Of a stretch of 64,000 nt of DNA, positions 1-52,597 are shown piece by piece. Source of the DNA: an uncultured Candidatus Saccharibacteria bacterium. GTDB taxonomy: Bacteria; Patescibacteriota; Minisyncoccia; Phycocordibacterales; Phycocordibacteraceae. The notes under the pieces were generated by a model, which was not told the origin of the DNA, searched no databases, and was given only the letters and a program-made list of their open reading frames with translations. Both the position numbers and the translations under genes were made by a program. The stretch's first letter is position 1. Each line of letters opens with the position of its first letter. The stretch is from NCBI GenBank assembly GCA_964618705.1, contig CAZUBJ010000001.1:2050-66049 (forward strand), given 5' to 3'.

Positions 1-47
1 AGGGTTGCTTTGCTAAGCGTGCGTCTGATGCGGCAATTATCTGCAAT

Positions 48-461
48 ATGGAAAGTGCGGGTGGTAACCCTCGTGTGGAGAGTGGAAGCGATAAGCTTGA
101 TGGTGGTAAGGGCTCTTCGTACTCTGTCGGACTATGGCAGATAAATTTGACGGTACACAAGATCGTTAAGGATGGCAAAACACTGAACTGTCCGGCGGCT
201 TTCACAAACCCTTGCGACAGAGAACATTACACCGACCCAAATAATCATCCTGGCTGGTGCAATTCCTCCATCAGGAACACACAGGAAGCGCGAGATTTGT
301 ATGCTGCGTGTGTTGCTGCCGCGAAAGATCCCGTAGTAAGCACCGCTGCAGCATGTGCCATGGATAAGAACATGGACTTTAGTGATTGGGCCTGTTCAGC
401 TAGTCGTTGCCAAATATCAGGTGCCCGTGTACTTTCTGGCGGCTGTGCACCAGGTAGATAA
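48..461 (+). CDS. Secreted lytic transglycosylase-like protein (SLT/GH23-like; VirB1-like). May extend 5' beyond the window.
   Basis: The ES...S..G..GLWQIN motif resembles the SLT catalytic region (E-S ... GLMQ). The protein is Cys-rich and looks secreted. There is no in-frame stop between nt 1 and the ATG at 48, so the 5' end may be truncated. Confidence 0.5.
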   Translation: MESAGGNPRVESGSDKLDGGKGSSYSVGLWQINLTVHKIVKDGKTLNCPAAFTNPCDREHYTDPNNHPGWCNSSIRNTQEARDLYAACVAAAKDPVVSTAAACAMDKNMDFSDWACSASRCQISGARVLSGGCAPGR

Positions 462-483
462 TCATGCGTGATACTATTTTTGT

Positions 484-1017
484 ATGAAGTATGTCCTGAT
501 AGCTTTGGGTGCTGTAGTTGTAGCGGTTGCTATTCTTGCGGGTCTGTTCTTTGTTCTTACGCGTGAGAAAGAACCTGTGTCTTCTCCAAATCAAGCACAA
601 AGCCCTTTTGGATTTATCGGGGGCACAGCAACGACACCCACCAAGACACTTTCTCTATCGCTTCGTGATGGCACTGTCGTACAAGCGCACGACTTTACGA
701 AACAGGACCAGCCCGAGTGGGCAGGCGGCGCATCAGGGTATCTGGTTGGCGGCGGTGAGCAGGAGAATTTCATCATTCTTTACTTTGCACCAGATGTACC
801 TAACGGTCAGGGTGAATTCTTGGTGAACGTAAATGCAGAACCTATTGGAGACGCGCGCAGACGTGCGGAGGCTGCGCTCAAGGCTCGTCTTGAGATGACC
901 GAAGAAGAATTGTGCAAGCTTGCCGTTTCTGTACGAACTGCGCCCGGCGTGAGCGCTACCTACGGAGGATATGACCTGGGGCTTAGTTTTTGTCCGGGCG
1001 CTGTAGCTTTGCCGTAG
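484..1017 (+). CDS. Membrane-anchored hypothetical protein
   Basis: It has an N-terminal TM helix (LIALGAVVVAVAILAGLFFVL). It sits 23 nt after the previous gene and 1 nt before the next, which indicates an operon. Confidence 0.45.
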   Translation: MKYVLIALGAVVVAVAILAGLFFVLTREKEPVSSPNQAQSPFGFIGGTATTPTKTLSLSLRDGTVVQAHDFTKQDQPEWAGGASGYLVGGGEQENFIILYFAPDVPNGQGEFLVNVNAEPIGDARRRAEAALKARLEMTEEELCKLAVSVRTAPGVSATYGGYDLGLSFCPGAVALP

Positions 1018-1018
1018 T

Positions 1019-2023
1019 ATGAAGCTCTTCTTGCCACTCCTTGCACTAACCGTCTTGCTGAACGTCGCCGTACCTTTTGCAGTACATGCGCAGGGAATTC
1101 CGACTATTGGGAGCGGGTTCCATATTATTCCGGACGCTAGCGAGTTGGATCCAGCATGCCCCGAGGGAGCACCGCTTTCGTTTGGTGCAGTCATGCAGAT
1201 TGCACAGAACTTGCTTGGCGTTGCAATAGCCTTTGGAGTGCTAATTTTTGTCATTATCATGGCGTGGGCTGGATTCCTTCTCATTACGTCCCCCATTAAC
1301 CCAGAAGCAAAAAGTACTGCACGAAAAATGCTCGGTAATGCTGCTATCGGTTTGCTTATCACGCTCTCCGCGTGGCTTATCGTGGACTTTGTCATGAAGA
1401 CCCTCTATAACCCAAATAAAGCAGGGCTCGGGCCATGGAATAGTATCTTGAGCGGTGGGCCAGCGTGCGTAAAAGAGACTGAGAATATGCAGGCACTCCC
1501 TATAGGACCAATTACTGCAGGTGATCTCGCCATCATAAATGACTGGGAGACGACCGACAGCGGTACGAGTAGTTCAGGTGGTGGTGGCGCGAACTGTCCA
1601 GCTGCGGATACTTCAAAAATGGTTGCATTCCCGGCCTCGGCAACTCAGGGAGAAACGGAGAAGGCAACTCAGACGACGGTAAATAATTTCTTAGCGATGC
1701 GCACAGCAGCACTTAAGGACGGGGTGGACCTTAAGGTTGTGGACGGGTACCGGTCAGATGCGGAACAGGTAGTGCTGTACAAACGCTACTGCAGCTCTGG
1801 CACCTGTGGAGCCAAGAAAGTTGGTAAACCCTGCTCCATGACGGGAGGAAAAGGATCAAATCACAATTCCGGAGAGGCTCTCGATTTGAATGTCGGGTGT
1901 GCGAACGGCGTGAGAAACTGCAATACAAAAACCTATAACTGGTTGAAGGCTAATGGATCCAAGTGGGGATTCAGGAACTCACTTCCTACTGATCCGCCAC
2001 ACTGGTCACCGAGCGGTAGCTAA
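1019..2023 (+). CDS. Fusion protein: TrbC/VirB2-like pilin-type N-terminus (signal peptide plus two hydrophobic helices) joined to a C-terminal peptidase M15 (VanY-like D,D-carboxypeptidase) domain
   Basis: The signal peptide ends at ...FAVHA. Two TM helices, AIAFGVLIFVIIMAWAGFLLITS and IGLLITLSAWLIVDFVM, are separated by a short loop, which is the TrbC/VirB2 topology. The C-terminal half carries VanY/M15 motifs: GYRSDAEQVVLY, SNHNSGEALD and PPHWS (the EPWH-like motif). Confidence 0.6.
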   Translation: MKLFLPLLALTVLLNVAVPFAVHAQGIPTIGSGFHIIPDASELDPACPEGAPLSFGAVMQIAQNLLGVAIAFGVLIFVIIMAWAGFLLITSPINPEAKSTARKMLGNAAIGLLITLSAWLIVDFVMKTLYNPNKAGLGPWNSILSGGPACVKETENMQALPIGPITAGDLAIINDWETTDSGTSSSGGGGANCPAADTSKMVAFPASATQGETEKATQTTVNNFLAMRTAALKDGVDLKVVDGYRSDAEQVVLYKRYCSSGTCGAKKVGKPCSMTGGKGSNHNSGEALDLNVGCANGVRNCNTKTYNWLKANGSKWGFRNSLPTDPPHWSPSGS

Positions 2024-2907
2024 TTGCTGTCCGTAAGTTTGCGAAGCCAGGCTTTCTGATGTCGTGCATAGTGCCAGAGCTTTGTGGAAAGCGTTGGCAG
2101 CAACGTTTCCTCTTCTCGCTCTCTGCGAAGGAATTCGCCAATCACACGATATTCTAGCCCTAGTTCATTCAGGCGGGTATCACCGACATACTCACGGACG
2201 GCCCGTACCTCATCGATAAGTCCTCGTGTGAATGCTGATGCAAGACGCTTCGATATGCGCTCACGTAGCACATCTCGCTCCGGATTAATAACCACCCATT
2301 CAACGCTGAGTAATGGAGTGTCAGTATCGCGCTCAGGTACATGGCCGTGCTCTGCAACTATTTCAAGAGCGCGAATAAGTCTACGTCGATTCTGCAAATC
2401 AATACGCTCTGCACGGCGGGGATCTGTAGCGGTGAGCCTAGCCACCAGTTCCTGCGTCGAGAGCGCCTCAAGGGTCTGGCGCACGAGTGGGTCGGGCACG
2501 CTTGTTTCGGGAAGTCCGTAGATAAGAGCTTCGAAATAGAAGTGCGTGCCTCCTGCAAGGATGGGGCGCTTTCCGCGGGACTCAATCTCCTTGATAAGGA
2601 GTGTCGTGTCGCGCACAAAGTCAGCCGCACTATAGATCTCTCGCGGGTCCAAAATATCTATGAGGTGATGGGGAACACCGTCCATATCCGCCTTGGTGGT
2701 CTTCTCCGTTCCGATATCAAGCATGCGGTAGACTTGGCGCGAGTCTACAGAAATAACCTCGCCATCGAATTCCTTCGCAAGCTCTACTGCACGCGCAGAC
2801 TTACCTGAGGCAGTAGGCCCCACAACGCAGAGAAGTGGGAGGGCGTTATCCAGGTGCTTCACAATACTTGGGATGCTATCATGACCATGAAATAACGGAA
2901 AACCCAT
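2020..2907 (-). CDS. miaA: tRNA dimethylallyltransferase MiaA
   Basis: The P-loop LLCVVGPTASGKS, ISVDSRQVY and HHLIDI motifs are classic MiaA. I chose the start at ATG 2907 (MGFPLF..). The track ORF extends to 2958, which would overlap the prx start on the opposite strand. Confidence 0.8.
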   Translation of the reverse strand: MGFPLFHGHDSIPSIVKHLDNALPLLCVVGPTASGKSARAVELAKEFDGEVISVDSRQVYRMLDIGTEKTTKADMDGVPHHLIDILDPREIYSAADFVRDTTLLIKEIESRGKRPILAGGTHFYFEALIYGLPETSVPDPLVRQTLEALSTQELVARLTATDPRRAERIDLQNRRRLIRALEIVAEHGHVPERDTDTPLLSVEWVVINPERDVLRERISKRLASAFTRGLIDEVRAVREYVGDTRLNELGLEYRVIGEFLRREREEETLLPTLSTKLWHYARHQKAWLRKLTDSN

Positions 2908-3570
2908 ATGACTACTGAACAAAAGAGCAATTACTGTGAACACTGTGGTGATTTCCACGACTCGTACCGCGAATACGCATCGTCAGTTCGCATTGGAGAG
3001 ACGATTCCAGACTATGAGTTTGAGGCGTTTCAGAACAATGATGTGAAGCCGATGAAGTTCTCAGACTTCCGTGGGAAGTGGCTCATTGTCATGTTCTACC
3101 CAGCAGACTTCACATTCGTGTGTCCAACTGAGCTTGAAGAAATGGCAGGACTCTACGCAAAGTTTACAGAACTCGGTGCTGAAGTGGTGTCGTTCTCAAC
3201 GGACACGGTGTTTGTGCATAAGGCGTGGCACGATACGTCTGGGGCCATTAAGAAAATCACCTTCCCAATGGGTGCAGACCCAACTGGAAAGGTGGCAGAT
3301 GCATTCGGTGTCTTGATTCAGGGAGGGGACACGATGCTAACACCAGACGAGGGTCTTGCACTCCGCGGTACGTTCATCGTAGATCCAAAGGGTGTGCTTA
3401 AGACCATGGAGGTGCATGACAACGGCATTGGCCGTTCTGCAAAAGAAACCCTGCGCAAATTGCAGGCAGCGCAGTTTGTGGCAACACACTCAGGACAGGT
3501 GTGTCCTGCGGCGTGGGAGCCAGGAGGGGATACGCTTGAGCCGGGGATGGATTTGGTTGGCAAAATCTAA
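2908..3570 (+). CDS. Peroxiredoxin (typical 2-Cys AhpC/Prx1 family) with a 25-aa N-terminal CxxC-containing extension
   Basis: FTFVCPTE carries the peroxidatic Cys and the resolving Cys lies in GQVCPAAW. Before the conserved RIGE..PDY block there is a CEHCGDFHD extension. Confidence 0.85.
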   Translation: MTTEQKSNYCEHCGDFHDSYREYASSVRIGETIPDYEFEAFQNNDVKPMKFSDFRGKWLIVMFYPADFTFVCPTELEEMAGLYAKFTELGAEVVSFSTDTVFVHKAWHDTSGAIKKITFPMGADPTGKVADAFGVLIQGGDTMLTPDEGLALRGTFIVDPKGVLKTMEVHDNGIGRSAKETLRKLQAAQFVATHSGQVCPAAWEPGGDTLEPGMDLVGKI

Positions 3571-3718
3571 GTAGGAGCAGTCTAAATTACTCCTGCGCTT
3601 CGTTACGGATCCCAGCGAGCTCATCCGTCGTGCTCTGCAGTACGCCTACTTCGCTCACTCTCCCGTGCCTTGAGCATAAGCATTTTAGCTCTGCTCTTGA
3701 GAAGATTGATGTAAAGAA

Positions 3719-3748
3719 AAGGGCCCGGCGCTTCTGCGCCGGGCCCTT
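3719..3748 (-). terminator. Rho-independent terminator (12-bp GC stem AAGGGCCCGGCGC / GCGCCGGGCCCTT, TTCT loop, T-tract on minus strand)
   Basis: The plus strand carries a perfect palindrome preceded by GTAAAGAAAA, which reads as a TTTTCTTTAC tail on the minus strand. Confidence 0.6.
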
Positions 3749-3760
3749 CCCGTTGTGGCT

Positions 3761-3931
3761 CTAGCCGTGGCCGCGTGCGCGCTCGCGCGCCAGGCCAACG
3801 GTGGCGAATTCCTCGATACCGACGAGGGGTGGCTCGTTGGAGCCCGTACCGTCGCTACGGTTAGTGGTCGCGGGTGCAAGCAGAGCGCCAATAACAACGG
3901 GGAAGAACAAATTAACAACGCTAAACGGCAT
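3761..3931 (-). CDS. Small hydrophobic peptide (hypothetical)
   Basis: This 56-aa ORF (MPFSVVNLFFPVVIGALLAPATT...) is GC-rich. A perfect 12-bp hairpin terminator lies directly downstream on the minus strand at 3719-3748. A competing ORF on the plus strand makes the call uncertain. Confidence 0.25.
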   Translation of the reverse strand: MPFSVVNLFFPVVIGALLAPATTNRSDGTGSNEPPLVGIEEFATVGLARERARGHG

Positions 3932-4244
3932 CACTTTTCCTATTACTATCGTTGCGGGAAGTACGAGGATACCATAGTGAAAAAGTTTCGGCGACCTGTG
4001 GGGTGGAGTGACACGGCGATTACGCCTTTTGCCCGCGCGTTGAGAGCTCGTCGTCCACCACAAGGGCATTTCTTATTTACTAACTCGCTGCGCTCCTAAG
4101 AAAATAATGTCACTCGCACTCACGCTGGGCACCGCCTCGCGGTTTTGCTCTACTGAGCAAAACATCGCTCCGGCATTCAAGTCCCGAGCACAACGCGAAG
4201 GCGTTGTGCTCCCCCGGCACAATTTCTCTCTGCGTTCTAAATTG

Positions 4245-4325
4245 TGCCGGGGGAGGGACTTGAACCCTCAAACCTTTCAGTAGTGGGTTTTGAATCCACC
4301 GCGTATACCATTCCGCCACCCCGGC
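4245..4325 (-). tRNA. tRNA-Leu (anticodon CAA), type II with long variable arm, no encoded CCA
   Basis: The reverse complement folds as acceptor GCCGGGG/CCCCGGC, D-arm GCGGAATGGTATACGC, anticodon arm GTGGA-TTCAAAA-CCCAC, a 13-nt variable arm, T-arm GAGGG-TTCAAGT-CCCTC and discriminator A. It is collinear with E. coli tRNA-Leu(CAA). Confidence 0.85.
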
Positions 4326-4387
4326 AATGTTCATAATCCTACTTCTAGATGCACTTCCTCGCAAACGGCTCGTGTTAGAATGCACAC

Positions 4388-5428
4388 ATGAATCCGTTTG
4401 GCGGCGACAAACTCGCATCTACCTACAACGAGCCAACCAAGTACGACTCTGTGTACTGGGTGGAGGTGGACCGCATCCAGCCGAACCCCTATCAACCTCG
4501 CAAGGAGTTTGACGAAGAACGACTTAAGGCTCTCGCAGAAAGTATTCGGCAGTACGGTGTGTTGCAGCCACTGGTAGTAACGCGCACCGAGCGCGAGCTT
4601 CCTGGTGGAGGGTTACAGGCCTCGTATGAACTTATTGCTGGTGAGCGTCGTTTCCGTGCATCAAAACTCATCGGTCTTAAGGAGGTACCCGTTGTTATTC
4701 GTGCGGGGGAACAGACTGACAAGATGAAGCTGGAGCTCGCCATTATTGAGAACCTTCAGCGCGAGGACTTGAACTCTATTGATCGAGCCAAAGCGCTTGC
4801 ACAGCTTGTAGATACCTTCGGGCTTTCTCACGGAGAAGTTGGTGCAAAGGTGGGCCGCAGTCGTGAGTACATCACCAACTCTATTCGCCTCCTCCTCCTT
4901 CCTGAGGAAATCCAGAACGCTGTGGTTGCAAAAGAGATTACTGAAGGACACGCGCGCGCACTCCTCATGCTCCAGGACCGTCCAGAGGAGATGCAGACTC
5001 TGTTTAAGGAGATCATGCTCAAGAAGACGAGCGTGCGCATGGTAGAGCAGATGGCACGCCGCATTGCCACCGACCGTATCCGCAAGCACGACAAAACCAT
5101 GGAGATGATGGAGCTTGAGAAAAGTCTCACAGAAACGCTCGGTACCCGTGTGCTGATTGAGAACCGTCCAAATGGCGGGCGTGTCCTCATTGAGTTTTTC
5201 TCTTCGGAGGACCTCGCAAACATTGCGAACATACTTGCGACGCGCGAGGCACAGCTCTTGGCAGAGAAGGAAGCCCCAGCTGCGAGCGAGAACGACACTG
5301 CCGTGGTGCCGTATCTATTTCCAAACACTACTCCTGTTGTCACTGCGGAACCCACCGCTCAAGTGGTAACTGAGGAAGTTACAGAGCCCGAAGAAGACAT
5401 ATACTCCGTTTCAAGCTTCACCGTTTGA
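4388..5428 (+). CDS. parB: Chromosome partitioning protein ParB/Spo0J, with a C-terminal acidic/Pro-rich extension
   Basis: It has the ParB box (LIAGERRFRA), VVIR, IENLQREDLN and an HTH (SHGEVGAKVGRSREYITNSIRLL). No parA is adjacent within the window. Confidence 0.85.
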   Translation: MNPFGGDKLASTYNEPTKYDSVYWVEVDRIQPNPYQPRKEFDEERLKALAESIRQYGVLQPLVVTRTERELPGGGLQASYELIAGERRFRASKLIGLKEVPVVIRAGEQTDKMKLELAIIENLQREDLNSIDRAKALAQLVDTFGLSHGEVGAKVGRSREYITNSIRLLLLPEEIQNAVVAKEITEGHARALLMLQDRPEEMQTLFKEIMLKKTSVRMVEQMARRIATDRIRKHDKTMEMMELEKSLTETLGTRVLIENRPNGGRVLIEFFSSEDLANIANILATREAQLLAEKEAPAASENDTAVVPYLFPNTTPVVTAEPTAQVVTEEVTEPEEDIYSVSSFTV

Positions 5429-5484
5429 CATTCTACCGCTTTCTTGTACAGTGTTCCTGAACAAGTACAAACGGAGGTAAAACA

Positions 5485-5739
5485 GTGGCCGACGAACGAA
5501 TCCCCGCGATGGCCTGGTTCAGGGATCGCAAGGCATACTACGGAGCAAAGCCGCCTACGAGCCAGGTACGGAGAACCTACGATGTGTTCGAGCGGCTCAT
5601 CATTCTCGTGAGCGACGAGCACCATCTGCTCACCTCCGAGCAGATGGACATTGTGGAGAATACGGTCCTGCACGGACTTAGGTCCGACGCCGACATCTTC
5701 TCAGTCGCCGCCTGGATCAAGACCTGCCCGCGCAGCTGA
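5485..5739 (+). CDS. Hypothetical small protein (84 aa) in a GC-rich islet
   Basis: The ORF runs at about 58% GC against a 50% background. A perfect 12-bp hairpin (5753-5780) follows it immediately. I recognise no family. Confidence 0.35.
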   Translation: MADERIPAMAWFRDRKAYYGAKPPTSQVRRTYDVFERLIILVSDEHHLLTSEQMDIVENTVLHGLRSDADIFSVAAWIKTCPRS

Positions 5740-5752
5740 GCCCGAACGAAAG

Positions 5753-5780
5753 TACCCCAAGCGCGCGAGCGCTTGGGGTA
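5753..5780. terminator. Bidirectional hairpin terminator (TACCCCAAGCGC-GCGA-GCGCTTGGGGTA) between the small ORF and rel
   Basis: A perfect 12-bp inverted repeat lies between the two convergent genes. Confidence 0.5.
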
Positions 5781-5789
5781 TCGTCATAT

Positions 5790-7412
5790 CTATTCCTTCG
5801 CTTTCTTGGGATTTTTCTTCTTCGTAATACGAAGGGGCTTAATCTCCGGGATCGTCGATTCAGGCCGTGCGTGCGTATCCAGATAGCTTCGAATATGACG
5901 TCGAGCAATACTTGTGCGCGCGTAGTCGTGCCATTTTGCCGTTGGGCGAGCGTTCTTACTTTTAATGATTTCTATAATGTCGCCGTTCTTAAGTTCGGTA
6001 TCAAACGAAACCAGCTTCCCATTTATTTTTGCACCCTGCATATGCTCTCCCAGGTCGCTATGAATTGCGAAGGCAAAGTCCACGGGGGTCGAACCGGTGG
6101 GAAGGTCAATCACGTCACCACGAGGTGAGAAGACAAAAATGCGATGCGAAAAGAAGTCAGTCTTAAGTCCTTCTACAAATTCGCTCGACTCCGCAACCTT
6201 TGCGTGCGCATCAGCAAGTTCGGTGAGCCATCCAGGTGTCGGAGCCACCTTTCCGTTCGCAGACGCCGCCTCGTGTGTTGGACGTTTAATATTCATGAGA
6301 TTTGGGAGAAGGTCGCGAATCCAAGGAATGGAGAGCTTCTGCACAGAACCCTGTTTAGCATTTCGTCCAAGTGCCTTATAGGAACCATGAGAAGCAATAC
6401 CAAACTCTGCCTGCTCGTGCATTTCGTTGGTACGAATCTGAATCTCTACAATACCTGCCTCAGGTGTTACGAGCGTGGTGTGAAGTGACTGGTACCCGCT
6501 TGAAGGTTTTGGTACGGCTATATAGTCCTTAAACTCTCCAGGAAGCGGCTTCCATAATGAGTGAAGTACTCCAAGTGCGGTGTAGGCATCCGGTACGGTG
6601 GGCACAATGATACGAAGTGCCGCAATGTCGTGAATTTTTGTGATGTCGTCCCCCTTACGCTTTAGTTTTTGATGCAGGCTCCATAGGCCTTTCATGCGGA
6701 TGCCCGTCTTAAAGTCACGCATGCCTTTACGCGCAAGCGCATGACGCACTTCCTTCTGAACTTTCACAAGGCCCGCCTCTGTTTCTTTTGCAGCTAGCTT
6801 TCGTACTTCAATGGCATGATGGTACGCATCCTCGTCAATAAACGGGAACGCCATGTCCTCAAAGTCCTTTCGAATGCGTCCCATGCCAAGACGATCGGCA
6901 AGTGGGGCATAAATCTCGAGTGTTTCGAGCGCTATACGTCTGCGCTTCTCCACAGGAACATGCTCAAGCGTGGTCATGTTGTGGTAGCGGTCCGCTAATT
7001 TAACAATAAGCACGCGCACATCAGCCGCGGTCGCTACTAGAAGGCGTCTCAAACTCTCTGCGTGGCGCTCTGTGCCCTGATACTTGTGCTGGCCGAGCTT
7101 GGTAACACCTTGCACTAAAAACAGCACCTCAGGGCCAAATTCAGCCGACACTTCTTCGTCAGTGACTTGCGTGTCTTCGATAGCGTCGTGCAGGAGTGCT
7201 GCGGCAACGGTCGGTGCGTCGAGTCCCAACTCAGCCAGGTGCTTAGCAACTGCGCTCGGATGTATAAAATAGGGCTCGCCCGAATAACGAGTGTGTCCCT
7301 CGTGCGCCTTCTTTGCAAAATCGTATGCTTTTTCTACGAGCGCTTTATCGAGAGCGCTCAGGTTAGTCATTTGGGCCAGTATTTCCTTGACCGTCGTCAT
7401 GGTCTTTAGCAT
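5790..7412 (-). CDS. rel: Bifunctional (p)ppGpp synthetase/hydrolase Rel (RelA/SpoT homolog, short 540-aa form)
   Basis: The HD hydrolase motifs (HLAELGLDAPTVAAALLHDAIEDT) and the synthetase domain (RIKDFEDMAFP..., YQSLHTTL) are present, followed by a TGS-like region. Confidence 0.85.
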   Translation of the reverse strand: MLKTMTTVKEILAQMTNLSALDKALVEKAYDFAKKAHEGHTRYSGEPYFIHPSAVAKHLAELGLDAPTVAAALLHDAIEDTQVTDEEVSAEFGPEVLFLVQGVTKLGQHKYQGTERHAESLRRLLVATAADVRVLIVKLADRYHNMTTLEHVPVEKRRRIALETLEIYAPLADRLGMGRIRKDFEDMAFPFIDEDAYHHAIEVRKLAAKETEAGLVKVQKEVRHALARKGMRDFKTGIRMKGLWSLHQKLKRKGDDITKIHDIAALRIIVPTVPDAYTALGVLHSLWKPLPGEFKDYIAVPKPSSGYQSLHTTLVTPEAGIVEIQIRTNEMHEQAEFGIASHGSYKALGRNAKQGSVQKLSIPWIRDLLPNLMNIKRPTHEAASANGKVAPTPGWLTELADAHAKVAESSEFVEGLKTDFFSHRIFVFSPRGDVIDLPTGSTPVDFAFAIHSDLGEHMQGAKINGKLVSFDTELKNGDIIEIIKSKNARPTAKWHDYARTSIARRHIRSYLDTHARPESTIPEIKPLRITKKKNPKKAKE

Positions 7413-7807
7413 ACTGCTCTAATCCGTTTGCGACAAACGGTAACCAGTTTACTGCGTACGCAGTTGTAAAAAATGTAAGCAAATTGCGAGGAGAGTTCTT
7501 TTGAGACCGTTACTGAGTAAGGCTCCATCGCACTGCGGAAAGTGTGGTGGTGTGCACCGTGCCATTCACGGCAAGCGCGTGAATGCGCAGGGAGTTCGAC
7601 TGCTGTGCGAGGAACCCGACACTATCGAGTTTGAGATCGACACCCCGTCATCGCCCTACGTAACGCCGCTTCCTGCCACGGTTGCGGCCTAAGCGAAGAG
7701 CCCGCACCCTATCGGGGCGGGCTCATGCTATGTGTGCCGTTGACTGCGACCAAAACCGCGCTATAGTCCAATTGTTCCACTCGTTTTAACGCAAGGAGAC
7801 TCGAGCC

Positions 7808-7975
7808 ATGCAGTACTGCACTGATTGCGGACAAATGGTGCTGGTGCCTTGCAAGAGCAAGGACCATCCCGAGATTGAGCGTGTGTTTTGCCCCAAACGG
7901 CGAACCATGATTTCCTTCGAACCGGTCATTCCGTCGAAGGTGCTCGCGTTCAATCGCGCCCTGCAAGCGGCCTAG
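7808..7975 (+). CDS. Small zinc-ribbon protein (55 aa, C-x2-C ... C ... C). It is under 60 aa, so it does not appear in the ORF track.
   Basis: It starts at ATG 7808 with an AAGGAG SD 9 nt upstream. The translation is MQYCTDCGQMVLVPCKSKDHPEIERVFCPKRR..., with four Cys. A hairpin terminator follows at 8015-8042. Confidence 0.35.
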   Translation: MQYCTDCGQMVLVPCKSKDHPEIERVFCPKRRTMISFEPVIPSKVLAFNRALQAA

Positions 7976-8014
7976 CCGCCTGCGCCCATCGGCCCTTCGT
8001 GGGCCCACAACAAG

Positions 8015-8042
8015 CCGCCGCGATTCGAAAGAGTCGCGGCGG
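8015..8042. terminator. Hairpin terminator (CCGCCGCGA-N10-TCGCGGCGG) 10 nt downstream of the topA stop. It also closes the small plus-strand ORF.
   Basis: The inverted repeat is 9 bp and is followed on the plus strand by TATCTACTTTTAT. Confidence 0.5.
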
Positions 8043-8051
8043 TATCTACTT

Positions 8052-10454
8052 TTATGCGAGGTAGCTTGCTGCTTCTTCGGGCGAGAGCGTATCGGCGTCA
8101 ATACTTTCGGGAAGCGATATGCGACGGAGCCCCTTTTTGAGGAAGTAGCCAGACTTTGATTTATAGAGCGTCAGCGTCTTTCCGGTCTTTGGGTGCTTTC
8201 CAATCTCGCGCACAATGGTCACGCCCTTTGGTGGAAGTTTTGGCTCGGCAAGCACTGCCACTGCACGTTCCAGTGTAATGGTATACGGGTCGTCGCCCTT
8301 CTTAAGGGAACGGAACTCGCCATCGTGACCGATGTACGGGCCAAAGCGTCCGATGTTTGCAATCATCGTTTTGCCCGTGTCAGGGTGCGCCCCCAACTCG
8401 CGTGGAAGTGAGAGGTAGTGCAGAGCAAGTTTCAAATCAACCGTATCAAGTGGAACTCCTGCGGGAATACTTGCACGACGAAGTTCTGGCTTGGGCTCTG
8501 CTGGCTTCTTCGGCTTTCGCTTGCTTGGCTTGCCGCTTTTGGTAAGGAGCGGAACGTCCTCGGCCGGCGCAACTTCCTTTGGAGGAAGCACCAACTCCAC
8601 GTACGGACCAAAGCGGCCCGTCTTTACATAAATGGGGCTACCTGTAGCAGGGTCAGTGCCAATTGGTTCGTCCGGCTTTACTTCGGTCCCGTCTTCTTGG
8701 CGCGCACCTTCACATTCAGGATAGCGGGTACAACTCATAAAGATACCTCCACGTCCGAGCTTGAACTCCATGGACGCACTACATAACGGACAGGTGAACT
8801 CCGCAGGCACGGCGCCAAGTGAGGTTGCCTTTGGCAGATCCTCCTTGCTCGCTACGGCCTTGGCAAACGGGGTGTAGAACTCCTTGAGCGTCTCTGCGTA
8901 TCCGCGCTCACCGCGAGCAATCTCGTCGAGCTCGTTCTCCATTTCCGCGGTGAATGAATCAGAAACATACTCGGCAAAGTGTTCTTCAAGCCATCCTGAA
9001 ACCACCATACCGGTTGCCGTTGGCGTGAGTGTGCGACCGGTCTTCTCCACGTAACCGCGATCTTGAATGGTCTTCATGATGCTTGCGTAGGTAGATGGTC
9101 TGCCGATACCACGCTTCTCAAGCTCCTTCACAAGTCCAGCTTCAGTGTAGCGATTTGGTGGTTCGGTTTGCTTTTCAAGCGAGCCAAGTTTAATAACGTC
9201 GACGGATTCGCCGACAGTCAGCAATGGAAGTTCAACGTCCTCGCCACGTGCACGCGTATCACACGCAAGCCATCCTGGAGAAATGAGACGGGAACCATTT
9301 GTGCTGAAAAGGGGAATATCCGCCTCCGCTTTAATCTTCACAGCAGTGCGCAGCATGCGCGCGGCCTTCATTTGTGAGGCAAGGGTACGTGCTCGGATAA
9401 GCTCGTAGAGCGCCTGCTCGTCTCCTGGTGTACCAGCACGAGCTCGGGCAGGGTCAGTTGGACGTACGGCTTCGTGCGCCTCCTGTGCATTCTTGCTGGT
9501 TGTCTTATATGCACGAGTCTCGACGTTAGCTGCACCAAATTCTTTTGATACTACCTCGGCAATCTTTGTCACTGCGTCCTTTGCAAGATTTACTGAGTCG
9601 GTACGCATGTAGGTGATGTGTCCTGCCTCATACAGCTTCTGCGCTGCACGCATAGTGCGGCTTGGAGAGAAGCCAAGACGAGTTGACGCGACCTGTTGCA
9701 GTGTAGAAGTGGTGAATGGTGGACGTGGCTTTCGTTCCTCCTCGCGCTCAGTAATATCGCTGATGCTCCAACTGCTTGCACGACCAAGCGTGACGATGCG
9801 TGTCGCTTCTTCGCTCGTGGTTGGCTCTACGGTGCACGCCGCAGGAATGTCCCCGCCCGTTGCATGGAATACAGCGTCGAGTGAGTAGTACGTCTCGGGA
9901 ACAAACGCCTGAATCTCGCGTTCGCGCTCAGCTAGGATGCGAAGTGCAGGGGATTGCACGCGACCTGCTGAGAGCCCGTAGCGCACCTTCTTCCAGATAA
10001 GGCCCGAGAGATCGTAGCCCACAAGTCGGTCTAGCACGCGGCGTGCCTCCTGTGCTTTGCGGAGATTCTCATCAATCTCGCGAGGGTGCTTGAGTGCTTC
10101 CTCCACCGCATTCTTAGTAATTTCGTAAAACACCACGCGCTTCGGATGCTTCATACCCACTGCCTCCTTAACGTGCCAGGCAATGGCTTCACCTTCACGG
10201 TCGGGGTCAGTCGCAAGGAAAATCTCGTCTGCTTTTTTTGCCGCCGTAACGATACGTTCAATTACGTCGCGCTTGTCCGGGGAAACAACGTAGCGCGGCG
10301 TAAATCCATTCTCAATATCGACCGCATCCTTGTTTGTTTTAGGGAGGTCGCGCACGTGACCTACGGATGCCAATACTTCATAGCCAGTACCAAGGTACTG
10401 GCCAATCGTGCGTGCTTTTGCGGGAGACTCTACAATAAGAAGTTTCTTTGCCAT
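8052..10454 (-). CDS. topA: DNA topoisomerase I
   Basis: MAKKLLIVESPAKARTIG marks the Toprim domain, YITYMRTDS carries the catalytic Tyr, and the C-terminus has Zn-ribbon-like Cys and Lys-rich repeats. I chose the start at MAKKLL (ATG 10454). Confidence 0.9.
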   Translation of the reverse strand: MAKKLLIVESPAKARTIGQYLGTGYEVLASVGHVRDLPKTNKDAVDIENGFTPRYVVSPDKRDVIERIVTAAKKADEIFLATDPDREGEAIAWHVKEAVGMKHPKRVVFYEITKNAVEEALKHPREIDENLRKAQEARRVLDRLVGYDLSGLIWKKVRYGLSAGRVQSPALRILAEREREIQAFVPETYYSLDAVFHATGGDIPAACTVEPTTSEEATRIVTLGRASSWSISDITEREEERKPRPPFTTSTLQQVASTRLGFSPSRTMRAAQKLYEAGHITYMRTDSVNLAKDAVTKIAEVVSKEFGAANVETRAYKTTSKNAQEAHEAVRPTDPARARAGTPGDEQALYELIRARTLASQMKAARMLRTAVKIKAEADIPLFSTNGSRLISPGWLACDTRARGEDVELPLLTVGESVDVIKLGSLEKQTEPPNRYTEAGLVKELEKRGIGRPSTYASIMKTIQDRGYVEKTGRTLTPTATGMVVSGWLEEHFAEYVSDSFTAEMENELDEIARGERGYAETLKEFYTPFAKAVASKEDLPKATSLGAVPAEFTCPLCSASMEFKLGRGGIFMSCTRYPECEGARQEDGTEVKPDEPIGTDPATGSPIYVKTGRFGPYVELVLPPKEVAPAEDVPLLTKSGKPSKRKPKKPAEPKPELRRASIPAGVPLDTVDLKLALHYLSLPRELGAHPDTGKTMIANIGRFGPYIGHDGEFRSLKKGDDPYTITLERAVAVLAEPKLPPKGVTIVREIGKHPKTGKTLTLYKSKSGYFLKKGLRRISLPESIDADTLSPEEAASYLA

Positions 10455-10515
10455 TTGCCTATGCATAACGCGCATACCTATATATAGTCAAGCGAGAACG
10501 AATGCACAGTGGTCG

Positions 10516-11376
10516 TTACACTCTGCACCAAGCACCAAATTCTTCTTTGAGTATGCCGCGGATTTCTAGCATGACGAGTGCGGTGAGTACTTCTCCGGCA
10601 GGCAGTCCCGAGTCGCGGATAATCTCGTCGCGTGCTCTTGGTTGTGCAAGCAGTTCGTAGAGCACCAGCTCCTGGGGAGTGAGGTCTCTAAGCGGCACCT
10701 GGCGTGACTCGGCCTTCTGGGAAATGCCGAGCGCTTCCAGAATATGTGCTGGCTCTGCAACAAGGGCCGCACCAAGACGAATGAAGAGGTTGGCAGCGTA
10801 GCCACCTCGGTCCCCAATGCGGTACGGCACGCATAGTAAGTCGCGATTGTATTCGCCCGAGAGCCGCGCTGTGATGAGTGTGCCCGAGCGTTCTGCCGCT
10901 TCAACGACAAGTACGGCGCGGGCAATACCCACCATGAGCCGGTTACGAGCAGGGAACATCCATGGCGCCGCTTGGGTCTCTGGAGGATACTCACTTATGA
11001 GTGCGCCTCCTGAATCTAGAATATTTGCGGCAAGTCCAGTGTTAGTTCTCGGCGCGATTGCTCGGTCATCTATGCCAGAGCCTGGAAAGGCGATGGTGTG
11101 AAGTCCTGCTGAAAGTGCGGCCCGGTGCGCGCACGCGTCAGCACCAAGTGCGAGTCCTGAGACAATGCACACTGGATAGCCAGCAAGTCCAGCAATCAAA
11201 CGCTCAGTTGCTTCTCGCCCATACGAAGAGAGGTCGCGAGAGCCAACAACGGTAAGGTATACCGTTCCCGCGGGTGGGAGGCTGCCTCGTATAAAAAGTG
11301 AGGGTGGGACATCAGGTATTTCCCGAAGCCCTTCGGGGTAGTCCGCAGGAGAGAGTTGTCGCATTTGGGTCTCCAT
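10516..11376 (-). CDS. dprA: DNA processing protein DprA (Smf)
   Basis: The Rossmann-like core SGLALGADACAHRAAL, VLGSG... and a C-terminal wHTH-like domain are present. It lies immediately upstream of topA, which is the conserved smf-topA arrangement. Confidence 0.8.
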   Translation of the reverse strand: METQMRQLSPADYPEGLREIPDVPPSLFIRGSLPPAGTVYLTVVGSRDLSSYGREATERLIAGLAGYPVCIVSGLALGADACAHRAALSAGLHTIAFPGSGIDDRAIAPRTNTGLAANILDSGGALISEYPPETQAAPWMFPARNRLMVGIARAVLVVEAAERSGTLITARLSGEYNRDLLCVPYRIGDRGGYAANLFIRLGAALVAEPAHILEALGISQKAESRQVPLRDLTPQELVLYELLAQPRARDEIIRDSGLPAGEVLTALVMLEIRGILKEEFGAWCRV

Positions 11377-52093: not shown

Positions 52094-52541
52094 TATTTTC
52101 CATAATGGGTGTAGATTTGCACTTACGCCCGGCTGCGGAGAAATCCGGTAAGCTTGGCGTCGCTCGCGGGCCTCGACATGAGAAGAGGCTCGCCGCTGCC
52201 CAGAACGGGTTTGCACACGTATCAACCGAGGAAAACCTACGCTCACTTGTGGGTATAGGGGGAAGCAGGAGGTTGCGTGGTCAATAAGGATAACTAAGAC
52301 GCCACTCCTCGCAACGTCGAGGAAGGGTGGAGGAAACCACGGAAGGGAGGAAGCGAATGCACAAACAAACTGCGTAGTGCGTGAGAGTGCTCTTGCTCGA
52401 GCAGGGACAGTCTCACGCGCTCCGCGAAATGACTTCTGGCGTCATATGCCAATGAAGTTGTGTTCTTCAATACAAACGGTTACCGACAGGGGCCCGCGCA
52501 ACGCGCACATGGCCCGAGGAACGTAGGGACCGAAGAAGAAC

Positions 52542-52566
52542 AGGCCGGACTTAAAAACTCCGGCCT
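52542..52566 (+). terminator. Hairpin plus T-rich tail (AGGCCGGA-N10-TCCGGCCT TTCGCATTTCC) immediately upstream of ddl
   Basis: An 8-bp GC stem lies 32 nt before the ddl ATG, at the end of a ~500-nt non-coding region. Confidence 0.4.
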
Positions 52567-52597
52567 TTCGCATTTCCATACTGGTATACTCACTACT

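What the first reader, a model, noticed from the sequence alone, without database searches (positions are those of the whole stretch)
1..2023. Window-edge cluster: SLT-type lytic transglycosylase plus a TrbC/VirB2-like pilin fused to an M15 (VanY-like) peptidoglycan peptidase
Gene 1019-2023 joins two modules. Its N-terminal half has the T4SS pilin (TrbC/VirB2) architecture: a signal peptide and two hydrophobic helices. Its C-terminal half is a VanY/M15 D,D-carboxypeptidase domain, with GYRS..Q..LY, SxHxxGxAxD and an EPWH-like PPHW.

It is preceded by an SLT/GH23-like (VirB1-like) transglycosylase and a membrane-anchored protein. Pilin-hydrolase fusions are unusual. They suggest a pilus or surface filament that carries its own wall-cutting activity. 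The cluster probably continues upstream of the window.
Basis: partly seen in the sequence, partly recalled or inferred. Interest (0 to 1): 0.55.

Follow-up and report, generated by a model that had tools for sequence, protein, structure and literature searches.

The report
Pilin-like anchors carrying cell-wall hydrolases
A three-gene operon conserved in Paceibacteria (ultra-small bacteria of the Candidate Phyla Radiation) encodes a lysozyme-like enzyme and a zinc cell-wall peptidase, each fused to a conjugation-pilin-like membrane hairpin; it sits among housekeeping genes rather than in a secretion-system cluster, so the fusion is real but its link to a pilus is unproven.

Summary
ORF 1019-2023 (334 aa) has a signal peptide, a two-helix hydrophobic hairpin, a floppy linker and a VanY/M15B zinc peptidase domain. 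VanY scores E=1.8e-12, and the residues H282, D289 and H328 are conserved.

The fusion is not an artefact. More than 95 protein clusters and 22 species genomes carry it in one ORF.

The hairpin belongs to Pfam T4SS_pilin (PF18895) at family level: 111 of 111 locus proteins match. The window protein itself scores just under threshold (22.7 bits against 26.6).

- A 96-98% identical contig shows that the edge gene is itself a 356-aa fusion of a pilin-like hairpin to a lysozyme-like domain.
- Upstream lie ClpB, IF-2 and RbfA, with no VirB4, VirB6 or VirD4 genes. The only T4SS-related gene in the window is a lone VirD4-like ATPase 30 kb away.
- The block [hairpin-lysozyme][TM protein][hairpin-peptidase] sits next to miaA-prx-parB-relA in about 60 Paceibacteria species genomes.

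The peptidase position has been repeatedly replaced by other domains that have no annotation.

The most likely function is a pair of membrane-tethered wall hydrolases acting on the cell's own wall. Display on a pilus remains possible but is untested.

The parts
1..461 (+). 3' part of gene 1 (frame of base 3, stop at 459-461): the lysozyme-like catalytic domain of a 356-aa protein. Its N-terminal signal peptide and pilin-like hairpin lie about 610 bp beyond the left edge of the window.
   Evidence: The translation shows ES and GLWQIN motifs. SLT_3 scores E=0.0025. The 152 aa are 100% identical to the C-terminus of L081:8908-9978, which carries T4SS_pilin (E=3.4e-5) plus SLT_3. In 47 orthologues E75, G101 and W187 are invariant and S76 and Q104 are nearly so, and the profile hits C-type lysozymes.
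484..1017 (+). Gene 2: a single-pass membrane protein of 177 aa with an extracytoplasmic alpha/beta domain. It has a conserved C-terminal LGLSFCPG motif and two invariant cysteines. Function unknown.
1019..2023 (+). Gene 3: the 334-aa fusion of a pilin-like hairpin to a VanY/M15B peptidase (stop codon included).
1019..1090 (+). Sec-type signal peptide (aa 1-24, AVHA|Q).
   Evidence: Hydropathy. A24 is at least 90% conserved in the alignment. AF2 confidence is low at residues 20-26.
1091..1483 (+). VirB2/TrbC-like carrier module (aa 25-155). It comprises a cysteine-bearing pre-helix segment (C47), helix 55-90, the cytoplasmic loop NPEAKSTARKM, helix 95-130 and the conserved LYNPN..GPWNSIL..C150 tail.
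   Evidence: PF18895 E=1e-4 over residues 61-125. NF045849, a pilin-like conjugal transfer protein family, scores E=1.2e-6 over residues 58-128. AF2 predicts a helical hairpin with pLDDT 86-96. PF18895 matches 111 of 111 locus proteins. The library holds 3450 representatives of this module.
1484..1588 (+). Low-complexity linker rich in G, S and T (aa 156-190).
   Evidence: AF2 pLDDT is 50-68 over residues 131-190 and below 50 at 174-185. The region aligns poorly among orthologues.
1589..2020 (+). VanY/LdcB-type (M15B, LAS fold) zinc peptidase domain. Zn ligands are H282, D289 and H328. The putative general base is D325. R245 is invariant. Conserved cysteine pairs are present.
   Evidence: PF02557 E=1.8e-12. 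Profile against the PDB: YodJ, VanY and BaLdcB at about 2e-8 and Ply500 at 1.2e-7. Foldseek: BaLdcB 4mph at 1.3e-5, plus Ply500, VanXYc and VanY. Residue counts. PHROG endolysin families match at 2.5e-7.

Best explanation
This is a vertically inherited three-gene operon that is part of the core chromosome of Paceibacteria (Patescibacteria, the Candidate Phyla Radiation).

**What it encodes**
- Two extracytoplasmic peptidoglycan hydrolases: a lysozyme-fold glycosidase (gene 1) and a VanY/LdcB-type zinc peptidase (gene 3).
- A single-pass membrane protein of unknown role (gene 2).

**How each hydrolase is built and placed**
- It is exported by a Sec signal peptide.
- It is held in the cytoplasmic membrane by an N-terminal VirB2/TrbC-like two-helix hairpin. 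Both ends face out, the basic loop faces in, and a conserved cysteine pair lies on the outer face.
- A flexible linker of about 35-60 residues presents the catalytic domain to the wall.

**Shown**
- The architecture, the topology signals and the intact active sites.
- Family membership of both domains.
- Conservation and housekeeping synteny.
- The absence of adjacent T4SS genes.

**Inferred**
- The pair acts on the cell's own sacculus. Gene 1 would cleave glycan strands and gene 3 would trim or cleave stem peptides.
- The pilin-derived hairpin serves as a specific membrane tether and docking module rather than as a polymerising filament subunit. The hairpin is highly conserved, including polar residues within it. 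This suggests it docks the enzymes to each other, to gene 2, or to envelope-spanning machines such as the T4SS or type IV pili.
- Whether the peptidase is a DD-carboxypeptidase, an LD-carboxypeptidase or an L-Ala-D-Glu endopeptidase is undetermined.
For: **Architecture and active sites**
-.

**Pilin-family homology of the hairpin**
- PF18895 matches 111 of 111 locus proteins and TrbC matches 24 of 111.
- NCBIfam pilin-like conjugal transfer protein scores E=1.2e-6.

**Gene 1 is a paralogous fusion**
-.

**Operon organisation**
- The gaps between genes are 22 nt and 1 nt.

**Synteny**
- The block [fusion][gene 2][fusion] sits convergent with miaA, followed by prx, parB, relA and topA, in about 60 species genomes.

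**Upstream genes are housekeeping**
- ClpB, IF-2, RbfA and Alr.

**No other T4SS parts nearby**
- There is no other pilin module in the 64-kb window.
- Pfam hits for the larger window ORFs scanned are housekeeping, apart from one lone VirD4-like ATPase at 32290-35031. Several ORFs had no family match, and VirB6-like proteins are often missed by HMMs.

**The hairpin is under strong constraint**
- The gene 1 and gene 3 hairpins share about 50-57% identity across genomes.
- Pilin arrays of Patescibacteria average 25% identity (PMC12102498). This points to purifying selection rather than diversification.

**The organism makes a peptidoglycan wall with D-Ala-D-Ala**
- Ddl at 52460-53563 and MltG/YceG at 63002-63967.
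- Alanine racemase lies upstream in L081.
Against: - No experiment or structure shows where these proteins sit.
- The nearest relatives of the hairpin are annotated as pilins. VirB2-like pilins are essential for epibiotic growth in a Saccharibacterium (PMC12857230), so a filament role cannot be dismissed.
- In known conjugative pili both pilin termini face outward (my own knowledge). A C-terminal domain could therefore be displayed on a filament.
- The repeated replacement of the gene 3 C-terminal domain among close relatives looks more like effector-cassette swapping than a housekeeping enzyme.
- One relative has small PF18895 genes about 9-10 kb upstream of the operon (L003).
- The window protein itself scores below the Pfam threshold for PF18895.
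Confidence: 0.5

Rival explanations
1. These are 'evolved pilins'. The hairpins co-polymerise with stand-alone VirB2-like pilins into a T4SS-dependent filament, perhaps as minor or tip subunits. The filament displays interchangeable wall-degrading domains that breach the wall of the host or prey cell during epibiosis. It is analogous to T6SS VgrG, PAAR and Hcp effector fusions and to flagellar FlgJ.
For: - The hairpin has family-level PF18895/TrbC homology.
- Of the 150 closest representatives of the hairpin, nearly all are fusions of 240-580 aa. Where Pfam annotates a C-terminal domain it is a wall hydrolase: SLT_3, VanY, CHAP or SLT.
- The gene 3 C-terminal domain types are intermixed along the RelA-identity ranking. 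That is the pattern of cassette swapping on a conserved delivery module.
- The VanY domain also matches phage endolysin and tape-measure lytic domains.
- The literature proposes T4SS pili in Patescibacteria (PMC12857230).
- Small pilin genes lie 9-10 kb upstream of the operon in L003.
Against: - No VirB4, VirB6 or pilin-array genes lie next to the operon in any of the loci examined.
- The locus keeps a fixed housekeeping position.
- The hairpins are far more conserved than known Patescibacteria pilin arrays.
- A globular domain of 140-180 aa on every subunit would hinder helical packing (inference).
- There is no immunity-like gene that co-varies with the C-terminal domain. Gene 2 tracks phylogeny, not domain type.
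- Fold search matches the hairpin to a conjugation pilus only at a non-significant level (8dfu E=2.2).
Confidence: 0.25
2. The hydrolases substitute for VirB1. The hairpin resembles VirB2 and VirB3, and it targets the two hydrolases to the VirB4/VirB6 assembly site in the membrane. There they open the cell's own wall locally for T4SS or type IV pilus assembly. This is a sub-case of the membrane-tether model with a defined partner.
For: - In monoderm T4SSs VirB1-type proteins pair a glycosidase with a peptidase. The survey of 3,035 genomes found few canonical VirB1 homologues, and its authors suggest that other glycosidases may fill the role (PMC12102498).
- In Southlakia a peptidase and a lysozyme next to virB4 are essential (same paper).
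- The hairpin also matches a Mycoplasma ICE conjugal transfer protein family.
Against: - The operon is not linked to virB4.
- The same survey says that Paceibacteria, unlike other classes, do have VirB1 homologues associated with virB4.
- No interaction data exist.
Confidence: 0.12
3. The N-terminus is an ordinary signal peptide plus a membrane anchor, and its similarity to pilins is a compositional coincidence of two hydrophobic helices. This is the refutation scenario the first reader named.
For: - The window protein scores below both curated thresholds: 22.7 bits against 26.6 for PF18895, and 28.1 against 40 for NF045849.
- Weak spurious hits to other membrane families appear, such as Bac_export_2, MatE and CrgA.
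- Fold search cannot tell the hairpin from other helical hairpins.
Against: - All 111 locus proteins and 143 of 145 distant representatives hit PF18895, with E-values down to 2.7e-14 and 2.8e-55. TrbC hits reach 4.4e-7 and 6.9e-26.
- The matches cover the whole 71-position profile.
- Most orthologues carry PF18895 in the precomputed annotation.
- Stand-alone versions of the same module, 127-184 aa long, exist.
Confidence: 0.05
4. The fusion is an assembly, frameshift or gene-calling artefact that joins a small pilin gene to a separate VanY gene.
For: None found.
Against: - The same uninterrupted ORF occurs in an independent assembly at 96-98% DNA identity.
- It occurs in more than 95 protein clusters from NCBI, JGI, ENA and Logan.
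- It occurs in 22 GTDB species genomes.
Confidence: 0.01

Closest known systems
VirB2-like pilins of Patescibacteria (Pfam PF18895 T4SS_pilin; Quinonero-Coronel et al. 2025, PMC12102498; essential pilin array of Southlakia epibionticum, cited in PMC12857230)
   Same: - Signal peptide plus a two-helix hydrophobic hairpin.
- Same Pfam family at family level.
- Same phylum.
[quoted passage not shown]
   Different: - These proteins are 300-450 aa long and carry a C-terminal enzyme. Described pilins are small.
- They are not near virB4.
- They sit at a fixed housekeeping locus.
- Their hairpins are about 50% identical across genomes, against an average of 25% in pilin arrays.
- No paper found in the library describes the fusion.
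VanY / LdcB (DacB, YodJ) M15B zinc carboxypeptidases; Ply500-type M15C endolysin domain
   Same: - LAS fold.
- The SxHxxGxAxD motif and a C-terminal His as Zn ligands.
- An invariant Arg in the GYRS motif.
- Best sequence and fold matches are YodJ 4ox3, VanY-B 5hnm, BaLdcB 4mph and Ply500 2vo9.
   Different: - The putative general base is Asp (DxxH in 86 of 97 orthologues, Glu in 10). The VanY-B entry 5hnm is an E175A mutant. That VanY and LdcB use ExxH and Ply500 uses DxxH is from my own knowledge.
- Several extra conserved cysteine pairs are present.
- The N-terminal anchor is a pilin-like hairpin rather than a single TM helix or a lipobox.
- Specificity is unknown.
VirB1-type and monoderm T4SS wall hydrolases (PrgK, TraG of pIP501, CD419, TrsG)
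   Same: - Membrane-associated muramidase and peptidase activities that open peptidoglycan for an envelope-spanning machine.
- The pairing of a glycosidase with a peptidase.
   Different: - Those enzymes are encoded inside T4SS operons. Both activities usually sit in one polypeptide with a single TM helix (SLT plus CHAP).
- Here two separate genes each use a pilin-like hairpin, and there is no T4SS linkage.
- SLT PF01464 is not matched (E=0.14).
Structural subunits fused to wall hydrolases: flagellar FlgJ (rod cap plus muramidase) and 'evolved' T6SS VgrG, PAAR and Hcp effector fusions such as VgrG-3 (from my own knowledge)
   Same: - The concept of an assembly or filament subunit carrying its own wall-cutting domain.
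- Interchangeable C-terminal domains on a conserved N-terminal carrier.
   Different: - The families are unrelated.
- No evidence here shows that the carrier polymerises.
- No cognate immunity gene was detected.
C-type (GH22) lysozymes and Pfam SLT_3 lysozyme-like domain (for gene 1)
   Same: - The profile of 47 orthologues hits insect and human C-type lysozymes (1.2e-5 to 1e-3).
- The 'CIA..ES' catalytic Glu and the 'G.FQIN' motif are conserved.
   Different: - The position that aligns with the second catalytic Asp of hen lysozyme is not Asp (read by eye from the motif, an inference). It therefore cannot be called either a hydrolase or a lytic transglycosylase.
- It is fused to a pilin-like hairpin.

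Membership tests
Pfam PF18895 T4SS_pilin (VirB2-like pilins of Patescibacteria) | HMM score at or above the gathering threshold (26.6 bits) | tested here: inconclusive
   - Window gene 3 scores 22.7 bits (E=1e-4), below threshold, but covers profile positions 8-71 of 71.
- Gene 1 scores 24.3 bits in L081 and 26.5 bits in L007.
- Most orthologues carry PF18895 in the precomputed annotation.
- 111 of 111 locus proteins match at E<=0.01, best 2.7e-14.
Pfam PF18895 T4SS_pilin (VirB2-like pilins of Patescibacteria) | Signal peptide followed by two hydrophobic helices joined by a short basic loop | tested here: met
   Hydropathy and sequence. AF2 predicts helices 55-90 and 95-130 with pLDDT 86-96.
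Pfam PF18895 T4SS_pilin (VirB2-like pilins of Patescibacteria) | Small stand-alone protein encoded near virB4 or in a pilin array | tested here: not met
   - The protein is 334 aa with an enzyme domain.
- No VirB4, VirB6 or pilin genes lie within 9-10 kb in L081 or relatives.
- There is no other pilin module in the window.
Pfam PF18895 T4SS_pilin (VirB2-like pilins of Patescibacteria) | Polymerises into an extracellular filament | not testable with these tools
   This needs imaging, fractionation or multimer modelling. As far as the papers read here say, it has not been shown experimentally even for the stand-alone Patescibacteria pilins.
Pfam PF04956 TrbC/VirB2 | HMM match | tested here: not met
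   The window protein has no hit at E<=1. Only 24 of 111 locus proteins and 15 of 145 representatives match. The relation is therefore at superfamily level.
Peptidase M15B (VanY/LdcB), Pfam PF02557 | HMM score above the gathering threshold | tested here: met
   47.6 bits against a cut-off of 25, E=1.8e-12. PDB profile hits are at about 2e-8. Foldseek gives probability 1.00 to BaLdcB, VanY and VanXYc.
Peptidase M15B (VanY/LdcB), Pfam PF02557 | Zn-binding triad His, Asp, His (SxHxxGxAxD ... xxH) | tested here: met
   H282 and D289 are invariant and H328 is present in 96 of 97 orthologues.
Peptidase M15B (VanY/LdcB), Pfam PF02557 | Catalytic Glu in an ExxH motif | tested here: not met
   The position is Asp in the window protein and in 86 of 97 orthologues, and Glu in 10. 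DxxH is the M15C / Peptidase_M15_4 pattern. The window protein hits PF13539 weakly (E=0.0023).
Peptidase M15B (VanY/LdcB), Pfam PF02557 | DD- or LD-carboxypeptidase activity on stem peptides | not testable with these tools
   This needs muropeptide assays.
SLT / GH23 lytic transglycosylase (PF01464), VirB1-like (for gene 1) | HMM match above threshold | tested here: not met
   - SLT scores 12.1 bits against 21.3 (E=0.14).
- SLT_3 scores 18.7 bits against 27.
- At family level SLT_3 matches 17 locus proteins (best 6.8e-12) and SLT matches 2.
- The profile prefers C-type lysozymes in the PDB.
SLT / GH23 lytic transglycosylase (PF01464), VirB1-like (for gene 1) | Catalytic Glu-Ser motif and the downstream G-x-x-Q motif of the lysozyme fold | tested here: met
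   E75 and G101 are invariant and S76 and Q104 are nearly invariant in 47 orthologues. The window shows NMES...GLWQIN.
SLT / GH23 lytic transglycosylase (PF01464), VirB1-like (for gene 1) | Encoded within a T4SS gene cluster | tested here: not met

The most novel reading that the evidence does not exclude
The VirB2-like hairpin is a delivery module. Paceibacteria would build a T4SS-dependent filament in which some subunits are 'evolved pilins' carrying interchangeable peptidoglycan-degrading domains: lysozyme-like, VanY, CHAP, and at least three unannotated domain types. These would be used to open the wall of the host cell during epibiosis. The C-terminal cassettes would be swapped between lineages to match host wall chemistry.
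Probability: 0.2. Interest if true: 0.8.

Novelty: new variant of a known kind. Interest (0 to 1): 0.5.

Why it matters
VirB2-like pilins have only recently been recognised as widespread in Patescibacteria, and as essential in the one member tested. What they do is an open question.

This locus shows that a large, well-conserved branch of the family is not made of free pilins. The module has 3450 representatives in the library, and almost all of the 150 closest are fusions. This branch is an N-terminal carrier for cell-wall hydrolases and for several domains that have no annotation. In Paceibacteria it sits at a fixed core-genome position.

- **It changes how survey counts should be read.** Published counts of 'VirB2 arrays' based on PF18895 probably include these enzymes.
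- **It offers candidates for missing wall-remodelling enzymes** in organisms with very small genomes.
- **It offers a concrete test** of whether Patescibacteria T4SS-type filaments carry enzymatic cargo.

If the hairpin is only a tether, the finding is a modest point of annotation and evolution. If it polymerises, this would be a new class of effector-bearing pilus.

Tried and rejected
- **Exact look-up of the window protein.** Looking up gene 3, or its identical database entry P0001, to obtain the upstream sequence found nothing on record. The near-identical gene 2 protein P0121 solved this.
- **Fold search for a VirB2 match to the hairpin.** The only hit was a non-significant one to the Aeropyrum conjugation pilus (8dfu, E=2.2), among unrelated helical hairpins. 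It is not usable as evidence either way.
- **Sequence profile of the whole family against the PDB.** No pilin was hit. Only M15 enzymes matched.
- **My motif-based guess about the alternative gene 3 C-terminal domains.** I guessed that types B, C and D are also LAS/M15 peptidases, from H..G...D plus a later His. This is not supported:
  - hhalign against the VanY profile gives a probability of 1-2%.
  - Pfam finds nothing even at E<=10.
  - The PDB gives only hedgehog N-product at E=0.5 for type B.
- **Promoter and terminator scan around the operon.** Counts are at the level expected by chance.
- **Other hypotheses considered.**
  - Frameshift or assembly artefact: rejected.
  - Holin-endolysin or prophage remnant: the topology is N-out/C-out with a signal peptide, the position in the core genome is fixed, and there are no phage genes nearby. 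I judged it unlikely.


Full report
**1. What is in the window**

Three tightly packed + strand ORFs fill bases 1-2023.
- An ORF is open at the left edge and stops at 461.
- Gene 2 runs 484-1017 (177 aa).
- Gene 3 runs 1019-2023 (334 aa).

The gaps are 22 nt and 1 nt. The gene 3 stop overlaps the stop of the convergent miaA gene at 2020-2958 (IPPT E=8.8e-60). A simple promoter and terminator scan of the equivalent region gave counts no better than chance. The operon call therefore rests on gene spacing and on conservation of gene order.

**2. Gene 3**

Hydropathy shows a signal peptide at residues 1-24 (AVHA|Q), two long hydrophobic stretches at about 57-95 and 104-130, and a basic loop NPEAKSTARKM between them.

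Pfam results:
- VanY scores E=1.8e-12, 47.6 bits against a cut-off of 25, over residues 216-325.
- T4SS_pilin PF18895 scores E=1e-4, 22.7 bits, over residues 61-125. This covers almost the whole profile (positions 8-71 of 71) but falls just under the 26.6-bit threshold.

NCBIfam independently gives 'Mbov_0395 family pilin-like conjugal transfer protein' over residues 58-128 at E=1.2e-6. That is also below its cut-off. It gives weak VanY and LdcB matches as well.

An AlphaFold2 model built on 97 orthologues has mean pLDDT 84.9.
- A helical hairpin spans 55-90 and 95-130 (pLDDT 86-96).
- A low-confidence linker spans about 131-190.
- A compact C-terminal domain has pLDDT above 93.

Foldseek against the PDB matches the C-terminal domain to BaLdcB (4mph, 1.3e-5), Ply500, VanXYc, VanY-B and VanX. 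A sequence profile against the PDB gives YodJ, VanY and BaLdcB at about 2e-8 and Ply500 at 1.2e-7. PHROGs endolysin families match at 2.5e-7.

Across 97 orthologues:
- R245, S280, H282, G285, A287 and D289 are invariant, and H328 is present in 96 of 97.
- The residue three before H328 is Asp in 86 and Glu in 10.
- C193 and C272 are invariant, C47 and C150 are each present in 96 of 97, and further cysteines at 258, 263, 294 and 301 are conserved in many orthologues. This fits an extracytoplasmic protein.

The enzyme looks active. It is an M15B/LAS-fold zinc peptidase. The Asp variant at the general-base position resembles the M15C / Peptidase_M15_4 pattern. Its substrate bond cannot be assigned from sequence.

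**3. The fusion is real and common**

The database search returned 234 homologues.
- About 95 of the 120 listed are full-length proteins of around 300-340 aa that carry both PF02557 and PF18895 in the precomputed annotation. Several also carry PF04956 TrbC.
- They come from NCBI, JGI, ENA and Logan assemblies.
- Where named, they are called 'D-alanyl-D-alanine carboxypeptidase family protein' from Paceibacterota, Parcubacteria or Patescibacteria.

An independent JGI contig, L081, is 96-98% identical to window bases 3-11029 and encodes the same 334-aa ORF. An assembly or frameshift artefact is excluded.

**4. What lies beyond the window edge**

L081 supplies the missing upstream sequence. The edge ORF is the last 152 aa (100% identical) of a 356-aa protein.

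That protein has its own signal peptide and a hairpin paralogous to that of gene 3. T4SS_pilin scores E=3.4e-5 in L081 and 26.5 bits in the next relative, L007. A Gly/Ser/Thr-rich linker and the lysozyme-like domain follow.

Upstream of it are ClpB, an unannotated 252-aa gene, a class V aminotransferase, IF-2, RbfA and alanine racemase. Relatives show the same picture.

Within the 64-kb window:
- A profile of the N-terminal module finds only gene 3.
- Pfam hits for the larger ORFs scanned are housekeeping: Dus, DnaX, an S24-type peptidase, UvrABC, Ddl, MltG/YceG, class I LysRS and others. Several ORFs had no family match.
- The single T4SS-related gene is a 913-aa VirD4/TraD-like ATPase at 32290-35031 (DUF87, TraG-D_C).

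A survey of 3,035 Patescibacteria genomes found that such coupling-protein homologues usually lie far from virB4 (PMC12102498).

**5. The lysozyme-like domain of gene 1**

Single-sequence support is weak: SLT_3 E=0.0025 and SLT E=0.14.

In an alignment of 47 orthologous C-terminal domains, E75, G101 and W187 are invariant and S76 and Q104 are nearly invariant. This gives the motif '..CIA..ES....G.FQI'.

The profile hits C-type lysozymes in the PDB: Musca lysozyme 2fbd at 1.2e-5, and human lysozyme at about 1e-4 to 1e-3. SLT_3 reaches 6.8e-12 in some members.

It is safely a lysozyme-fold muramidase or transglycosylase with the catalytic Glu. Calling it 'SLT/GH23, VirB1-like' is not established.

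**6. Gene 2**

Gene 2 encodes a single-pass membrane protein. Only 12 homologues were detectable by the word-based search, but tblastn finds it between the two fusion genes in about 50 loci.

**7. Conservation and variation of the locus**

A scan of GTDB species genomes returned 74 loci. In about 60 of them tblastn shows the following order:
- a hairpin fusion, then gene 2, then a second hairpin fusion;
- then miaA on the opposite strand, prx and parB;
- then relA and, where annotated, topA on the opposite strand.

All 111 fusion ORFs extracted from these loci hit PF18895 at E<=0.01, and 24 also hit TrbC.

Clustering the parts that follow the hairpin gives one family for gene 1 (47 loci, the lysozyme-like domain) and several unrelated families for gene 3:
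- VanY in 22 loci, counting the window itself.
- Type B in 13 loci, motif 'CHYGG..AVDFGD..HLHVS'.
- Type C in 12 loci, motif 'TGGTE.GH..SH..GYKID..HWD'.
- Type D in 10 loci, motif 'TEAYPP..CH.NGTC.D..HFS'.
- Singletons, including a Peptidase_M15_4 domain.

When genomes are ranked by RelA identity to the window, the gene 3 domain types are intermixed.
- VanY appears at 95% and 93% identity.
- Type D appears at 87%.
- Type B appears at 87-80%.
- Type C appears at 74%.
- VanY appears again at 71-64% and at 47-50%.

The C-terminal domain has therefore been replaced repeatedly on a conserved N-terminal module.

Types B, C and D have no Pfam hit even at E<=10. They have no significant PDB hit and no hhalign support for relatedness to VanY. 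My impression that they are also LAS peptidases stays an untested lead.

**8. Size and nature of the module family**

An exhaustive phmmer search used residues 25-155 against 1.84 billion cluster representatives.
- 3450 matched at E<=1e-3, 379 at E<=1e-10 and 12 at E<=1e-30.
- Almost all of the best 150 are proteins of 240-580 aa with the module near the N-terminus.

Pfam on 145 of them gives PF18895 in 143, and then SLT_3 (8), VanY (5), CHAP (4) and SLT (3). Most C-terminal extensions are unannotated. Stand-alone versions of 127-184 aa also exist (short ORFs next to miaA in L070, L071, L074 and L077).

**9. Literature**

The library holds one dedicated study (PMC12102498), one review (PMC12857230) and one mention in a structure-clustering preprint. 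They establish four points:
- PF18895/VirB2-like genes are widespread in Patescibacteria and are often near virB4.
- A six-gene pilin array is essential in Southlakia.
- A T4SS pilus in these monoderms is still a hypothesis.

None of these papers mentions fusions to VanY, lysozyme-like or other enzyme domains. Searches on PF18895, T4SS_pilin, Patescibacteria with VirB2, and CPR with peptidoglycan hydrolase and pilin found nothing further.

**10. Interpretation**

The anatomy is secure. Two secreted, membrane-hairpin-tethered wall hydrolases and a membrane protein form a core-genome operon.

*The membrane-tether model (confidence about 0.5).* The pilin-derived hairpin anchors the enzymes in the cell's own membrane and perhaps docks them to a partner. 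A flexible linker lets them reach the cell's own peptidoglycan. Four observations favour this model:
- The position of the operon among housekeeping genes is fixed.
- No T4SS genes lie nearby.
- The hairpin is strongly conserved. Gene 1 and gene 3 modules share about 50-57% identity across genomes, and G85, G111, N107 and D123 are invariant or nearly so.
- D-Ala-D-Ala wall synthesis genes are present.

A variant of this model (about 0.12) has the hairpin target the enzymes to the T4SS assembly site, as a functional substitute for VirB1.

It gains weight from three observations:
- The nearest relatives of the module are almost all fusions to hydrolases.
- The C-terminal domain has been swapped like a cassette.
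- The organisms live as epibionts.

It has no direct support. It must also explain the lack of linkage to T4SS genes and the bulk of the displayed domain.

*Rejected or disfavoured.* Spurious pilin similarity (about 0.05) is disfavoured. An artefact (about 0.01) is rejected.

**11. Novelty and score**

The two domain families are known, and the proteins are already in databases under a generic carboxypeptidase name. I found no description of any of the following:
- the use of the VirB2-like module as a conserved N-terminal carrier for interchangeable wall-hydrolase domains;
- the paired operon at a fixed Paceibacteria locus;
- the three unannotated replacement domains.

I rate it a new variant of a known kind, with interest 0.5. 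The finding is solid and useful for interpreting Patescibacteria 'pilin' counts. It is potentially important if the filament reading proves right, but the mechanism is unresolved.

Noticed in passing
window 32290-35031 (+) and 35043-38303 (+): A 913-aa VirD4/TraD-like coupling-protein-type ATPase (DUF87 E=1e-6, TraG-D_C E=4e-5, TIGR03743 E=1.5e-11). Twelve nt downstream is a 1086-aa protein with no Pfam or NCBIfam family, a hydrophobic Gly/Ala-rich segment in its middle (read from the translation) and an Ala/Pro/Asp-rich region. It is the only T4SS-related gene in the window and has no VirB4, VirB6 or pilin neighbours.
   Followed up: partly
loci L024, L026, L028, L031 (type B); L029, L036, L042, L045 (type C); L020, L027, L030, L044 (type D); coordinates: Three families of C-terminal domains of about 160-175 aa replace VanY at the gene 3 position. 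They have invariant His, Asp and Cys patterns but no Pfam hit even at E<=10, no significant PDB match and no hhalign relation to VanY. They are candidate new wall-active domains.
   Followed up: partly
protein P0267 (583 aa): A single polypeptide made of seven tandem copies of the pilin-like hairpin, a 'poly-pilin', with no enzyme domain.
   Followed up: no
L070:9899-10330, L071:6518-6964, L074:9977-10396, L077:3525-3959: In more distant (Kaiserbacteria-type) genomes, the hairpin module near miaA or parB-relA is a stand-alone protein of 140-150 aa without any C-terminal enzyme.
   Followed up: no
L021:7953-9907 and L034:2577-4411: Variants in order and content. In L021 the VanY fusion comes before the lysozyme fusion. 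In L034 a VanY fusion is directly followed by a hairpin-Peptidase_M15_4 fusion (PF13539 E=3.2e-16).
   Followed up: no
L003:1-812: In the 742-kb contig of one relative, two small PF18895 pilin genes (116 and 96 aa) lie about 9-10 kb upstream of the operon. Whether a virB4 cluster lies further upstream could not be checked.
   Followed up: no
window 57436-61587 (+): A 1383-aa surface protein with Big_9/cadherin-like, pectate-lyase-like adhesive, YDG, MBG, Ig-like and C-terminal PG_binding_1 domains. It is a likely wall-anchored adhesin.
   Followed up: no
window 29560-31131 (+): The lysyl-tRNA synthetase is of class I type (PF01921, E=2e-81). That is the less common form in bacteria.
   Followed up: no
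window 52460-53563 (+), 63002-63967 (-); L081:1-683: D-Ala-D-Ala ligase, MltG/YceG and (upstream in L081) alanine racemase are present. The organism therefore makes conventional D-Ala-D-Ala-terminated peptidoglycan precursors.
   Followed up: partly
record titles of L007, L013, L017, L020, L024-L026 and others: Many MAGs titled 'uncultured Candidatus Saccharibacteria bacterium' share the Paceibacteria-type operon and synteny, with up to 95% RelA identity to the window. These labels look generic or wrong.
   Followed up: no
L081:7861-8908: About 1 kb without a called gene lies between ClpB and gene 1. In relatives rpmG (L33) and small ORFs occupy this space. A strong terminator-like hairpin sits on the - strand at 8161-8136.
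   Followed up: no
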